Shown here in pieces: positions 15,274 through 16,277 of a stretch of DNA of 64,000 bases (position 1 is the stretch's first letter; each line of letters begins with the position of its first letter). The notes under the pieces are model-generated. The model did not search any database and was not told where the DNA came from. It saw only the letters and a program-made list of their open reading frames with translations. Position numbers and translations under genes: made by a program. The stretch is from NCBI GenBank assembly GCA_009842505.1, contig VYFG01000048.1:5082-69081 (forward strand), read 5' to 3'. Origin of the DNA: Gammaproteobacteria bacterium. Lineage in GTDB: Bacteria; Pseudomonadota; Gammaproteobacteria; Arenicellales; Poriferihabitantaceae.

Positions 15274-15396
15274 GAATATCGCTTCCTCGTGAAATTGTAT
15301 TGCCCGGAACACCGGGAGCGGAATGACCCGGGGGAACCGCCAAAGAGCAGGAGAAACCGGTCATCCTCCGCCCGGACCGGAAGCCGGCCGGCAGGC

Positions 15397-15482
<86 letters not shown>

Positions 15483-15534
15483 ACGGACATTCCGTCATCC
15501 CGCCAGGCGCTTCCGGCCAGGGCGGGCATTGTGA

Positions 15535-15611
15535 TGGGGTGAGCGATGGGGCTCGAACCCACGACCACCGGGATCACAACCCGGGGCTCTACCAACTGAG
15601 CTACGCTCACC
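15535..15611 (-). tRNA. tRNA-His(GTG)
   Basis: GGTGAGCGTAGCTCAGTTGGTAGAGCCCCGGGTT-GTG-ATCCCGG...CACCCCA; includes G-1. Confidence 0.96.
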
Positions 15612-15665
15612 ATACACAATTGACACAATTGTACCTGTTCAACAGCCCCCGGAACTCCGGAAAAC

Positions 15666-16072
15666 TGGTACGCCCGACAGGATTCGAACCTGTAACCTAC
15701 GGCTTAGCTTACCAACTACGGCTTTCGCCGCCCACTGTGCCCGGCCCGGTGGATACGTCGTTCCCCCAAGGCCCAGGCGCAGTGGTTTGTGGTCTGGACT
15801 ATATCTTCACCATCGCAGGTGGGGCACGTATAGTCTCTACGGATCCCGGGTCATGAATCACGCCCCGGTTTCCTCGGTGTTGCCAACACCCCGGCAACAG
15901 CAAAGCCCGGGATGCGAAGGGTCCACCGATACAGTGCCCTGCACTCCGACAGTTCAGTTCCCGCCGGAGGCTCCTGTTTGCGGTGCCGGGATATTACGGA
16001 GCAAACTCTTTTCCGGATTCCCGGAGGCCGCCACTCAAAGGCCGTTGCTCTATCCTATTGAGCTACGGGCGC
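15666..16072 (-). tRNA. tRNA-Arg(TCT), split by a group I intron (exon 1: 16072-16038; exon 2: 15707-15666)
   Basis: Joined exons give the 77-nt GCGCCCGTAGCTCAATAGGATAGAGCAACGGC-CT-T|CT-AA-GCCGTAGGTTACAGGTTCGAATCCTGTCGGGCGTACCA; Arg identity base A20; occupies the Arg slot of the Pro-Arg-His-Leu operon. Confidence 0.93.
15708..16037 (-). ncRNA. Group I self-splicing intron (330 nt, no ORF, IC3-like)
   Basis: Preceded by exon U, ends in G; R element GTAGAGACTA (15840-15831) and S element AAGATATAGTCC (15807-15796) form P7; P3 GGGCAC/GTGCCC; P4 TCGGTG/CACCGA; P9-type GCGGC-GAAA-GCCGT hairpin. Confidence 0.92.
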
Positions 16073-16091
16073 AAAGGATAAAACGTAAAAC

Positions 16092-16168
16092 TGGTCGGGG
16101 TAGAGAGATTCGAACTCCCGACATCCTGCTCCCAAAGCAGGCGCGCTACCAGGCTGCGCTATACCCCG
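16092..16168 (-). tRNA. tRNA-Pro(TGG)
   Basis: CGGGGTATAGCGCAGCCTGGTAGCGCGCCTGCTT-TGG-GAGCAGG...ACCCCGACCA; 77 nt. Confidence 0.97.
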
Positions 16169-16248
16169 TATCGCCACGATTCCCCGACACGAATGCCGGG
16201 ATACAAGGTAAAACTACGCCCCCCGGGGCCTCAGGTCAAGGGCGGCGA

Positions 16249-16277
16249 ACTATACGGATTATGCCCCCTGCCGTCAA
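16249..16277 (-). promoter_or_regulatory. Sigma-70 promoter of the tRNA operon
   Basis: TTGACG-N17-TATAGT followed by GC-rich discriminator TCGCCGCC. Confidence 0.75.

What the first reader, a model, noticed from the sequence alone, without database searches (positions are those of the whole stretch)
15666..16072. Group I intron splitting the anticodon of tRNA-Arg(UCU) at position 34/35
Seen: the Arg slot of the Pro-Arg-His-Leu tRNA operon holds two tRNA halves 330 nt apart. Only the junction ...GGC-CU-U | intron...G | CU-AA-GCCGU satisfies the group I rule (exon U, terminal omega-G), and it restores a 77-nt tRNA with anticodon UCU and Arg identity base A20. The insert has the ribozyme core: P3 GGGCAC/GUGCCC, P4 UCGGUG/CACCGA, P7 GACUA/UAGUC within R (GUAGAGACUA) and S (AAGAUAUAGUCC), a P8 hairpin, ACCA/UGGU pairing near the 3' end and a GAAA-capped hairpin. 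Established: the classic bacterial tRNA group I introns are in Leu(UAA) at 34/35, fMet(CAU), Ile(CAU) and Arg(CCU), the last after position 36. Inference: this host tRNA and site combination in a gammaproteobacterium is one I do not recognise as described. AGA codons occur in the window (e.g. hutU codon 3), so splicing is probably needed for translation and must precede U34 modification. Standard pipelines may report this tRNA as missing.
Basis: partly seen in the sequence, partly recalled or inferred. Interest (0 to 1): 0.92.

Follow-up and report, generated by a model that had tools for sequence, protein, structure and literature searches.

The report
Group I intron in tRNA-Arg(UCU)
The only gene for the arginine tRNA that reads AGA codons in this sponge-associated bacterium is interrupted by a 330-base ribozyme-type (group I) intron, which is real and well conserved but belongs to a kind already seen in other bacteria.

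Summary
Window 15666-16072 (- strand) is a tRNA-Arg(UCU) gene split after the wobble base U34 by a 330-nt insert (16037-15708) inside a Pro-Arg-His-Leu tRNA cluster.

The insert has a group I core. Rfam RF00028 aligns full length but weakly (23.6 bits; cut-off 50). Much stronger support comes from 69 homologues: 98.8% of cells pair in my P1-P9 model against 33-40% for slid controls, and 32 of 71 pairs show compensatory changes. Intronless relatives carry exactly the ligated exons.

No other Arg(UCU) gene was found in this 96%-complete assembly. AGA occurs in 944 of 1462 long ORFs, so splicing is probably required. Splicing itself was not observed.

The novelty claim fails. Arg-TCT group I introns were reported in Beggiatoaceae (PMC4853749). 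A 2020 preprint raised tRNA intron settings from 4 to 21. The same junction occurs in 87 of 243 genomes of this order, and in other phyla by record title.

Verdict: real, probably essential, new member of a known kind. Modest extras are a 63-nt insertion in loop L1 and endonuclease-bearing relatives.

The parts
16038..16072 (-). 5' exon of tRNA-Arg(UCU): acceptor 5' strand, D arm, anticodon-stem 5' strand and loop bases C32 U33 U34. The last base, U34 (16038), is the 5' splice-site U.
   Evidence: ARAGORN -i. The same exon end is seen in 30 of 30 related loci. It abuts the 3' exon directly in 14 intronless relatives (L172 and L173).
15708..16037 (-). Group I intron, 330 nt, with no ORF of 40 aa or more on its sense strand.
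   Evidence: RF00028 aligns full length at 23.6 bits, E 6e-4. Covariation in 69 homologues. ORF list.
15666..15707 (-). 3' exon: C35 U36 A37 A38, anticodon-stem 3' strand, variable loop, T arm, acceptor 3' strand, A73 and an encoded CCA.
15975..16037 (-). L1 insertion: 63 nt between the 5' splice site and the guide sequence. It folds as one irregular hairpin and its sequence is lineage-specific.
   Evidence: The distance from the 5' splice site to GGAGCC ranges from 5 to 88 nt in the 83 of 85 homologues that carry that hexamer. Fold -20.8 kcal/mol, z -1.35, not significant on its own.
15969..15974 (-). GGAGCC, nearly universal among the homologues. Its GAG (15973-15971) is the inferred internal guide sequence, pairing with exon C32 U33 U34 to form P1, with U34 paired to G as the splice-site wobble.
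   Evidence: The three P1 pairs are CG, UA and UG in 69 of 69 sequences. They never vary, so P1 is inferred from position and not from covariation. In short-L1 relatives the motif lies 5-8 nt after the splice site, as in a canonical P1 hairpin.
15944..15969 (-). P2 hairpin: 9 base pairs with an 8-nt loop.
   Evidence: 9 of 9 pairs show compensatory changes.
15934..15939 (-). P3, 5' strand (GGGCAC).
   Evidence: 4 of 6 pairs compensatory; 98.3% of cells paired.
15841..15929 (-). P4-P5-P6 domain. P4 is 15929-15924 with 15879-15874, P5/P5a is 15920-15883, and P6 is 15873-15841.
   Evidence: Compensatory changes in 2 of 6 P4 pairs and 2 of 5 P6 pairs. P5's two pairs are nearly invariant.
15831..15837 (-). 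P7, 5' strand (GAGACUA, with a bulged A). This is the inferred guanosine-binding helix.
   Evidence: 6 pairs, 99.8% of cells paired, 4 never vary, 1 compensatory. Aligned to the RF00028 consensus.
15822..15827 (-). P3, 3' strand (GUGCCC). It forms the P3/P7 pseudoknot.
15808..15821 (-). P8 hairpin.
   Evidence: 2 of 4 pairs compensatory; 100% of cells paired.
15796..15801 (-). P7, 3' strand (UAGUCC), preceded by J8/7 (AAGAUA).
15711..15793 (-). P9 domain. A closing helix ACCA/UGGU (15793-15790 with 15714-15711) encloses a variable hairpin (15785-15732) and a GAAA-capped hairpin (15731-15718).
   Evidence: Closing helix: 1 of 4 pairs compensatory (A-U 35, C-G 20). GAAA hairpin: 4 of 5 pairs compensatory.
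15708..15708 (-). Terminal (omega) G of the intron.
   Evidence: G precedes CTAAGCC in 30 of 30 loci found by BLAST, which were not selected on this base.
16092..16168 (-). tRNA-Pro(UGG), the upstream neighbour in the cluster.
15535..15610 (-). tRNA-His(GUG), a downstream neighbour.
15397..15481 (-). tRNA-Leu(UAG), the last gene of the cluster.
16249..16277 (-). Sigma-70-like promoter match (TTGACG, 17-nt spacer, TATAGT; 10 of 12) upstream of tRNA-Pro.
   Evidence: Consensus scan only.
15350..15369 (-). Terminator-like hairpin after tRNA-Leu.
   Evidence: Consensus scan only. 3 found against 1.3 expected in shuffles, so this is weak.

Best explanation
The Pro-Arg-His-Leu cluster is probably transcribed as one precursor. 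Within it, the tRNA-Arg(UCU) gene carries a 330-nt group I intron of the small tRNA-anticodon-loop type, inserted between U34 and C35.

Inferred mechanism:
1. The anticodon-loop bases C32 U33 U34 pair with the GAG of the invariant GGAGCC to form a short P1, with a U34-G wobble at the splice site.
2. The P3-P9 core folds around the P3/P7 pseudoknot.
3. A free guanosine bound at P7 cleaves after U34.
4. The terminal G (15708) then takes its place, and the freed 3' OH of U34 attacks the 3' splice site, joining U34 to C35.
5. The product is a 77-nt tRNA with anticodon UCU.

This is the only Arg(UCU) gene found in the assembly, so splicing is probably needed to read AGA codons, and it must come before any modification of U34.

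The intron has no endonuclease gene. Within this order it looks mainly vertically inherited, with repeated loss, and possibly some gain.

Shown here: the split gene, the exact junction, the conserved and covarying ribozyme fold, and the absence of a second copy in what is assembled. Inferred: P1 (it never varies), catalysis, self-sufficiency of splicing, and essentiality.
For: - ARAGORN with introns allowed rebuilds a canonical 77-nt tRNA-Arg(tct).
- In 14 of 61 relatives the two exon halves are contiguous. Two such alleles that I fetched read as the ligated exons.
- RF00028 aligns over its full length, positions 1-253. It is the only RF00028 match in the genome at E up to 1.
- Fit of the structure model, 28 relatives: 97.0% of cells paired, 17 of 74 pairs compensatory.
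- Fit of the structure model, 69 homologues: 98.8% paired against 33-40% slid; 32 of 71 pairs compensatory (P2 9/9, P3 4/6, P4 2/6, P6 2/5, P7 1/6, P8 2/4, P9 1/4, GAAA hairpin 4/5); 0 of 500 shuffles reach any of the five measures.
- The window's copy forms a standard pair at every modelled position. By construction it also carries every invariant column of the alignments.
- Only copy: ARAGORN finds 39 tRNAs, including Arg acg, ccg (2) and cct but no tct. BLAST of the exons finds no second copy. An intron-aware rescan finds only this gene.
- In four single-contig genomes of the same genus (G003, G006, G009, G011) the interrupted gene is the only hit to the exons.
- AGA makes up 2.69 per 1000 codons and occurs in 944 of 1462 crude ORFs of 300 aa or more.
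- Metatranscriptome contigs from 2 studies cover the intron and both splice sites with 0 differences (X15 records 5 and 6). This is compatible with a transcribed precursor, although DNA carry-over is not excluded.
Against: - The RF00028 score (23.6 bits) is under half the curated cut-off of 50. The hit did not appear at all when 3 kb was searched at E up to 1.
- P1 and most of P7 never vary, so they carry no covariation evidence.
- The genome is a 157-contig assembly, 96% complete, with only 39 tRNAs found. A second Arg(UCU) gene could therefore lie unassembled.
- The 63-nt L1 insertion puts the guide sequence unusually far from the splice site. A competing local pairing (exon GGCCUU with GGCGGCC) exists in this sequence.
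- 41 of the 69 aligned sequences were collected through a pattern across the 3' junction, so exon and junction conservation in them is by construction. The intron helices are not.
Confidence: 0.87

Rival explanations
1. The fold is a real group I intron, but it does not splice on its own in the cell. It would need a protein helper such as an RNA chaperone or a synthetase-like cofactor, perhaps because of the long L1 insertion.
For: The guide sequence lies 63 nt from the splice site, with an alternative local pairing available. The RF00028 score is low.
Against: All core helices are intact and covary. Relatives with an L1 of 5-8 nt share the same core, so the core itself looks complete. No candidate helper gene was identified, and none was looked for.
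Confidence: 0.08
2. This copy is a dead gene: a tRNA pseudogene disabled by a decaying intron. AGA would be read by an Arg(UCU) gene in the unassembled 4% of the genome, or by another tRNA.
For: The assembly is fragmented (157 contigs) and only 39 tRNAs were found.
Against: The intron and both exons are under clear purifying selection across 69 homologues. In four closed genomes of the same genus the interrupted gene is the only match to the exons. The window's copy pairs at every modelled position.
Confidence: 0.04
3. The insert is another kind of element, such as a miniature transposon, an integration scar or an assembly chimera, that happens to sit in the anticodon loop.
For: None, beyond the sub-threshold Rfam score.
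Against: Full-length alignment to RF00028. A pseudoknotted core with compensatory changes. The same insert at the same site in 43 of 61 relatives and in independent assemblies. DNA and RNA contigs of several studies span both junctions.
Confidence: 0.01

Closest known systems
[quoted passage not shown] Maribeggiatoa' and 'Ca. Thiomargarita nelsonii' Bud S10)
   Same: The same host tRNA (Arg, anticodon TCT), the same class (Gammaproteobacteria), the same consequence (the tRNA was missing from the annotation), and the same proposed intron class (PMC4853749, passages read; it cites MacGregor et al. 2013a).
   Different: The passages give neither the insertion position nor a structure. I could not read MacGregor 2013a (not held) and did not fetch those loci, so identity of site and homology of the introns are untested. 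Those reports call the introns 'putative'.
The 21 tRNA/anticodon-loop settings of bacterial group I introns in Williams 2020 (bioRxiv 10.1101/2020.01.27.920355)
   Same: The same approach and the same kind of object: an Rfam hit of about 20 bits inside an ARAGORN split tRNA, with U at -1 and a terminal G. In that paper's nomenclature this one would be written Arg.3Ug.
   Different: The text names only the four classical settings (Leu.3Ug, Arg.5Ug, fMet.2Ug, Ile2.5Ug) and Leu.3Cg. I therefore cannot say whether Arg(UCU) after U34 is among them.
Classical tRNA-Leu(UAA) group I intron (cyanobacteria, plastids and some proteobacteria; subgroup IC3 according to the database cited by Williams 2020)
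   Same: Inserted after U34, behind the same exon triplet CUU. The Leu(UAA) introns I found in two relatives also show a GAG a few bases into the intron and end in GGUA(A/U)G. Core identity to the window's intron is 55-56% over about 200 aligned columns.
   Different: A different host tRNA and 3' exon. The window's intron has a 63-nt L1 insertion.
Classical tRNA-Arg(CCU) intron of alpha-proteobacteria and the Azoarcus tRNA-Ile(CAU) intron
   Same: Small anticodon-loop introns without an ORF and with the same helix plan. Arg(CCU) introns occur in relatives of this genome and are 56-61% identical to the window's core. [quoted passage not shown]
   Different: They are inserted after position 36, not 34 ('Arg.5Ug' and 'Ile2.5Ug' in Williams 2020). 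Self-splicing has been shown for those introns (recalled; titles of Reinhold-Hurek and Shub 1992 and Tanner and Cech 1996, seen only in the reference list and table of PMC4033280) but not for this one.
Endonuclease-bearing tRNA group I introns (PD-(D/E)XK family, Pfam PF11645)
   Same: Three Arg(UCU) introns at the same site (L043, L061, L084; 634-645 nt) hold a conserved sense-strand ORF. The L061 ORF matches PF11645 at E 2.5e-37.
   Different: The window's intron has no ORF of 40 aa or more on its sense strand. That PF11645 includes the endonuclease of the cyanobacterial tRNA-fMet intron is recalled, not tested.

Membership tests
Group I intron (Rfam RF00028) | Covariance-model score at or above the curated gathering score (50 bits). 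| tested here: not met
   23.6 bits over model positions 1-253. E is 6e-4 in a 461-nt search and 1.2e-3 against the whole genome. Not listed in a 3-kb search at E up to 1. According to Williams 2020, none of the 12 RF00028 seed sequences were bacterial, and that study worked at 18-20 bits.
Group I intron | P1 helix between the 5' exon end and an internal guide sequence, with a U-G wobble at the splice site. | tested here: inconclusive
   C32 U33 U34 can pair with the GAG of the conserved GGAGCC, giving CG, UA and UG in 69 of 69 sequences. No column varies, so there is no covariation. Support comes from position only: the motif sits 5-8 nt after the splice site in short relatives.
Group I intron | Terminal (omega) G at the 3' end of the intron. 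| tested here: met
   G precedes the 3' exon in 30 of 30 loci found by BLAST.
Group I intron | Conserved core: the P3/P7 pseudoknot, the P4-P6 domain, P8 and J8/7. | tested here: met
   98.8% of cells paired against 33-40% slid. Compensatory changes in P3 (4/6), P4 (2/6), P6 (2/5), P7 (1/6) and P8 (2/4). J8/7 and P7 align to the Rfam consensus.
Group I intron | Guanosine-initiated two-step transesterification (self-splicing). | not testable with these tools
RNA contigs showed no ligated junction for this organism, but contigs cannot show its absence.
Subgroup IC3 (small tRNA anticodon-loop introns) | Located in a tRNA anticodon loop. | tested here: met
   Between positions 34 and 35.
Subgroup IC3 (small tRNA anticodon-loop introns) | Sequence and structure kinship with the classical tRNA introns. 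| tested here: inconclusive
   52-61% identity over about 200 core columns to the Arg(CCU), Leu(UAA) and Thr(UGU) introns of relatives. No subgroup-specific model or reference set was available. The IC3 label for the classical four comes from Williams 2020.
tRNA-Arg(UCU) | Canonical cloverleaf with anticodon UCU once the insert is removed. | tested here: met
   ARAGORN -i gives a 77-nt tRNA. All tRNA stems pair in 100% of cells in 69 sequences.
tRNA-Arg(UCU) | The ligated exons correspond to a natural uninterrupted gene. | tested here: met
   The exon halves are contiguous in 14 of 61 relatives. L172 and L173 read ...GGCCTT directly followed by CTAAGCC....
tRNA-Arg(UCU) | Arginine identity elements A20 and C35 (a rule recalled from E. 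coli work). | tested here: met
   The sequence shows A at D-loop position 20 and C35 as the first base of the 3' exon. The rule itself comes from memory, not from a call.
Mobile (homing) group I intron | Intron-encoded homing endonuclease. | tested here: not met
   No sense-strand ORF of 40 aa or more in the window's intron. Present in three longer homologues (PF11645).

The most novel reading that the evidence does not exclude
Arg(UCU) 34/35 introns may have arisen more than once by reverse splicing of tRNA-Leu(UAA) introns. Both settings share the same exon triplet (CUU) before the splice site, and the two Leu(UAA) introns I fetched also carry a GAG a few bases into the intron.

In this sponge-associated order one such intron lost its endonuclease and became fixed as an obligatory step in AGA decoding. 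It also acquired lineage-specific L1 expansions of up to 88 nt between the splice site and the guide sequence. These could make splicing, and hence the supply of a rare-codon tRNA, conditional.
Probability: 0.15. Interest if true: 0.45.

Novelty: new member of a known kind. Interest (0 to 1): 0.3.

Why it matters
Practical value comes first. This tRNA is invisible to default ARAGORN and to the Rfam tRNA model. tRNAscan-SE was not designed for such genes (PMC8450103). Genomes of this order will therefore often be reported as lacking tRNA-Arg(UCU): the junction is present in 87 of 243 genomes searched. That affects completeness checks and codon-usage reasoning.

Biologically, the locus adds a large and well-sampled set of natural variants of a small ribozyme, with L1 ranging from 5 to 88 nt, with and without an endonuclease gene, and with intron-plus and intron-minus species inside single genera. 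Such a set is useful for studying intron loss, gain and structural tolerance.

It does not change what is known about group I introns.

Tried and rejected
RNA evidence for splicing. I laid the contigs of four sponge metatranscriptome runs (X15-X18, two studies) on 15380-16180.
- No contig joins 16038 to 15707.
- The joints listed near there (15692 to 16046 and 15705 to 16048) carry 23 and 12 foreign letters. They read as the anticodon arms of other arginine tRNAs, so they are other genes.
- Loose ends at 16038 in X16 continue into a different T arm, so they come from another organism's Arg(UCU) tRNA.
- Contigs cover the unspliced form.
- Contigs cannot show the absence of a short, modified tRNA, so this says nothing either way about splicing.

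Rfam at 3 kb gave no group I hit. Only the 461-nt search and the genome search listed it.

Two origins of the Arg(UCU) intron. In a FastTree and an IQ-TREE quick tree of 82 introns over 219 columns, the Desulfogranum intron (L091) groups with the two Leu(UAA) introns (SH-aLRT 95), and the Oleiphilus intron (L116) falls outside the main Arg(UCU) clade. The program warns of long-branch joins, and the AU test does not reject a single Arg(UCU) clade (p 0.327). I keep this only as a hint.

P1 as drawn by Rfam (exon GGCCUU with GGCGGCC). Rejected as the conserved P1 because most relatives lack that complement.

My P5a pairs, taken from the window's sequence, did not hold in most of the 28 relatives (helix 8: 69% of cells paired). 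I left them out of the second count.

The L1 hairpin alone is not more stable than shuffles (z -1.35).

Literature.
- Searches found no paper describing this intron in Arenicellales (0 papers).
- Apart from PMC4853749, they found no paper mentioning an Arg-TCT group I intron in bacteria. One search returned 4 papers; I read passages of PMC4853749 only, and the other three titles concern a Klebsiella phage and DNA language models.
- MacGregor 2013a is not held.
- The table, figures and supplements of Williams 2020 could not be seen.
- A 2014 review lists bacterial tRNA group I introns only for cyanobacteria and alpha- and beta-proteobacteria (PMC4033280, passages).

Rows dropped.
- Of 30 BLAST-found loci, two near-duplicates (L010, L017) were left out of alignment A1.
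- Of the 55 pattern-found loci, those identical to earlier rows and the three introns giving precursors over 520 nt (L043, L061, L084) were left out of A2, leaving 41.
- 25 of the 80 listed genome-contig loci showed no split Arg gene across the pattern. Most of their titles are unrelated taxa, as expected for chance matches of a 16-base pattern. A few are Arenicellales records where the match lies near a locus end, and I did not examine those.
- ARAGORN labelled 5 of the 30 BLAST-found loci with another anticodon, because it chose another junction. Their exon ends are the same as in the other 25.
Full report
WHAT IS THERE

On the - strand the window holds four tRNA genes in a row. They are tRNA-Pro(UGG) at 16168-16092, a split gene at 16072-15666, tRNA-His(GUG) at 15610-15535 and tRNA-Leu(UAG) at 15481-15397.

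Default ARAGORN and the Rfam tRNA model see only Pro, His and Leu. When introns are allowed, ARAGORN calls a 77-nt tRNA-Arg(tct) whose anticodon loop is interrupted by 330 nt between ...GGCCTT and CTAAGCC.... That places the break after the wobble base U34 (window 16038) and before C35 (15707).

A promoter-like site (16277-16249) lies before tRNA-Pro, and a weak terminator-like hairpin (15369-15350) lies after tRNA-Leu. Both fit a single transcription unit, but these are consensus matches only.

IS THE JUNCTION RIGHT?

Yes. A BLAST of the 407-nt gene against 61 genomes (this one, its genus, its family and its order) matched 57 of them.
- In 43, by my reading of the rows, there are matches to the intron part, or the exon halves are separated.
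- In 14 the match to bases 1-35 abuts the match to bases 366-402 or 366-407 with nothing in between.
- In 4 (72-88% complete) nothing was found.

Two of the contiguous alleles were fetched. ARAGORN calls them ordinary 77-nt tRNA-Arg(tct) genes reading ...GGCCTT directly followed by CTAAGCC... (L172 and L173). So the intronless gene of relatives equals the predicted ligated exons.

In all 30 loci fetched the exon ends are the same and the insert ends in G. ARAGORN labelled 25 of the 30 as Arg(tct) and picked another junction in 5. Several introns begin with C where the window's begins with T (L032 and L033). That removes the one-base sliding ambiguity present in the window.

IS THE INSERT A GROUP I INTRON?

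Rfam's RF00028 aligns over its whole length (positions 1-253) at 15776-16047(-). The score is only 23.6 bits against a cut-off of 50 (E 6e-4 in 461 nt; E 1.2e-3 genome-wide), and the hit was not listed in a 3-kb search. On its own that is weak.

The comparative evidence is strong. From the sequence I wrote a helix model: P1, P2, P3, P4, P5, P6, P7 (crossing P3), P8, a P9 closing helix and a GAAA-capped hairpin, plus the four tRNA stems. I counted it on MAFFT alignments.
- On 28 relatives: 97.0% of cells pair, and 17 of 74 pairs have changes on both sides.
- On 69 homologues: 98.8% of cells pair, against 33-40% when the 3' partners are slid by 1-3 columns. 32 of 71 pairs have compensatory changes. 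0 of 500 shuffles reach any of the five measures.
- Compensatory pairs per helix: P2 9/9, P3 4/6, P4 2/6, P6 2/5, P7 1/6, P8 2/4, P9 1/4, GAAA hairpin 4/5.

P1 and P5 do not vary. The P5a pairs I first took from the window's own sequence failed in most relatives and were dropped.

A caveat on sampling applies. 41 of the 69 sequences were collected through a pattern across the 3' junction, so their exons are alike by construction. The intron helices were not selected on.

WHERE IS P1?

Rfam's alignment pairs exon GGCCUU with GGCGGCC a few bases into the intron, but most relatives have no such complement.

What is conserved is GGAGCC, immediately before P2. It is present in 83 of 85 homologues, and the other two have GGAG. 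Its GAG can pair with exon C32 U33 U34, giving a U34-G wobble at the splice site.

The distance from the splice site to this motif runs from 5 to 88 nt. In the short versions it forms an ordinary P1 hairpin with a 5-8-nt loop. In the window 63 nt are inserted in that loop. I therefore place the guide sequence at 15973-15971 and call 16037-15975 an L1 insertion. Its fold is not significant by itself (z -1.35).

P1 is thus inferred from position, not from covariation.

IS IT NEEDED?

The assembly (157 contigs, 96.3% complete) yields 39 tRNAs with ARAGORN, including Arg acg, ccg (twice) and cct but no tct. Three further checks agree:
- BLAST of the exons finds no second copy.
- An intron-aware rescan and a core-motif scan find only this gene.
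- In the four single-contig genomes of the same genus, the interrupted gene is the only match to the exons.

AGA is rare but widespread. It makes up 2.69 per 1000 codons and 3.3% of Arg codons, and it occurs in 944 of 1462 crude ORFs of 300 aa or more.

So splicing is probably required for translation. This is an inference, and a second copy in unassembled DNA is not excluded.

WAS SPLICING SEEN?

No. Four metatranscriptome runs hold the locus. Their contigs cover the intron and both boundaries, two of them without a single difference, but no contig joins the exons. The joints and loose ends near the splice sites belong to other tRNAs or other organisms.

Contigs cannot show the absence of a short tRNA, and DNA carry-over is possible, so I draw no conclusion from this.

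WHO ELSE HAS IT?

Record titles of the public contigs that carry the same 3' junction name the following:
- Arenicellales and the sponge-associated 'Candidatus Poriferihabitaceae', 'Ca. Poriferihabitans' and 'Ca. Spongiihabitans'.
- Acidiferrobacterales, Woeseiaceae, Chromatiales and an Oleiphilus.
- Outside the class, Desulfogranum marinum DSM 2058, a Hydrogenimonas and some unclassified bacteria.

By ARAGORN plus the junction test, 55 of the 80 listed loci are this split gene.

The runs that hold the window's own sequence are sponge metagenomes.

Counts of the junction pattern:
- Within the order it is in 87 of 243 genomes: family f1 45 of 68, f12 17 of 36, f6 10 of 20, f11 0 of 49, f2 0 of 46. 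The reversed-pattern control gave one hit.
- It is polymorphic inside genera: g8 3 of 8, g4 2 of 12, g9 1 of 7.
- In an even sample of the class it is in 6 of 401 genomes, including this one.
- The pattern misses some carriers, for example G049 and G058, so these are lower bounds.

RELATIVES OF THE INTRON

Genomes of the same family also carry group I introns in other tRNA genes:
- tRNA-Arg(CCU), after position 36: five loci.
- tRNA-Leu(UAA), after U34: two loci.
- tRNA-Thr(UGU): one locus.

The window's genome has none of these.

Over about 200 well-aligned core columns, the window's intron is about 70% identical to the six distant Arg(UCU) introns that I compared. It is 52-61% identical to the introns of other tRNAs and to the Arg(UCU) introns of Desulfogranum and Oleiphilus.

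A tree puts the Desulfogranum intron with the Leu(UAA) introns. However, long branches are involved, and an AU test does not reject one clade for all Arg(UCU) introns (p 0.327).

The Leu(UAA) and Arg(UCU) settings share the exon triplet CUU, and the two Leu(UAA) introns fetched also have a GAG a few bases in. That makes transfer between them by reverse splicing plausible, but I have not shown it.

Three longer Arg(UCU) introns (634-645 nt) hold a conserved ORF. The L061 ORF matches Pfam PF11645, a PD-(D/E)XK endonuclease, at E 2.5e-37. The window's intron has no sense-strand ORF of 40 aa or more.

So the family includes mobile members, and the window holds an ORF-less one.

WHAT IS KNOWN

- Flood et al. 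[quoted passage not shown] They credit MacGregor et al. 2013a, which I could not read.
- Williams 2020 (bioRxiv, whole text read) screened 80,413 bacterial genomes with the same logic. The screen found 5292 split tRNA genes and raised the known settings from four (Leu.3Ug, Arg.5Ug, fMet.2Ug, Ile2.5Ug) to 21. The list of new settings is in an image and in supplements that I could not see.
- A 2014 review still lists such introns only for cyanobacteria and alpha- and beta-proteobacteria (PMC4033280, passages).
- My searches found no paper on this intron in Arenicellales, and none beyond PMC4853749 for Arg-TCT.

VERDICT

The steps not shown are catalysis, P1 and essentiality.

The claim that this host-and-site combination is undescribed is not supported. 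The host tRNA has been reported with group I introns in the same class. The setting is common in public genomes, and a systematic survey probably already lists it.

I rate it a new member of a known kind, with interest 0.3. The locus is useful for annotation and offers a rich natural series of variants (L1 of 5-88 nt, with and without endonuclease, intron-plus and intron-minus species), but a specialist would not be surprised by it.

Noticed in passing
L164-L166, L170, L171 (Arg CCU); L167, L168 (Leu UAA); L169:306-654 (Thr UGU): Genomes of the same family carry further group I introns in tRNA-Arg(CCU) after position 36, in tRNA-Leu(UAA) after U34, and in tRNA-Thr(UGU). The order seems unusually rich in tRNA introns. 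The window's own genome has only the Arg(UCU) one.
   Followed up: partly
L061:6659-7072(-); also inside the introns of L043 and L084: Three Arg(UCU) introns of 634-645 nt hold a conserved sense-strand ORF of 115-141 aa. The L061 ORF matches Pfam PF11645 (PD-(D/E)XK endonuclease) at E 2.5e-37, 128 bits. It is a likely homing endonuclease, and the window's intron lacks it.
   Followed up: partly
window 15975-16037(-), and the same region of 85 homologues: The stretch between the 5' splice site and the conserved GGAGCC varies from 5 to 88 nt. Long versions form lineage-specific hairpins. In the window and its closest kin this stretch can also pair with the exon, forming an alternative P1-like stem.
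   Followed up: partly
G000 contig C130:2954-3054(-) and contig C39:7368-7453(-): ARAGORN calls a 101-nt tRNA-Arg(ccg) and an 86-nt 'tRNA-???' with a two-base anticodon elsewhere in the genome. Both are odd lengths or odd calls that I did not examine.
   Followed up: no
G000, whole genome: Only 39 tRNA genes were found. Several expected anticodons are not called, for example Thr(UGU), Leu(CAG) and Ser(CGA). A motif scan found no further group I core, so assembly gaps are the likelier reason.
   Followed up: partly
window 15380-16180: The runs that hold this stretch almost completely are sponge metagenomes and a few organism-labelled runs. Four sponge metatranscriptomes also hold parts of it, so the organism is probably a sponge symbiont that is present in RNA libraries.
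   Followed up: partly
L038, L068 (record titles): The same split Arg gene, with an Arenicellales-like intron, appears in MAGs titled Nitrospiraceae and Parasphingorhabdus. These may be mis-binned contigs and not cases of transfer.
   Followed up: no
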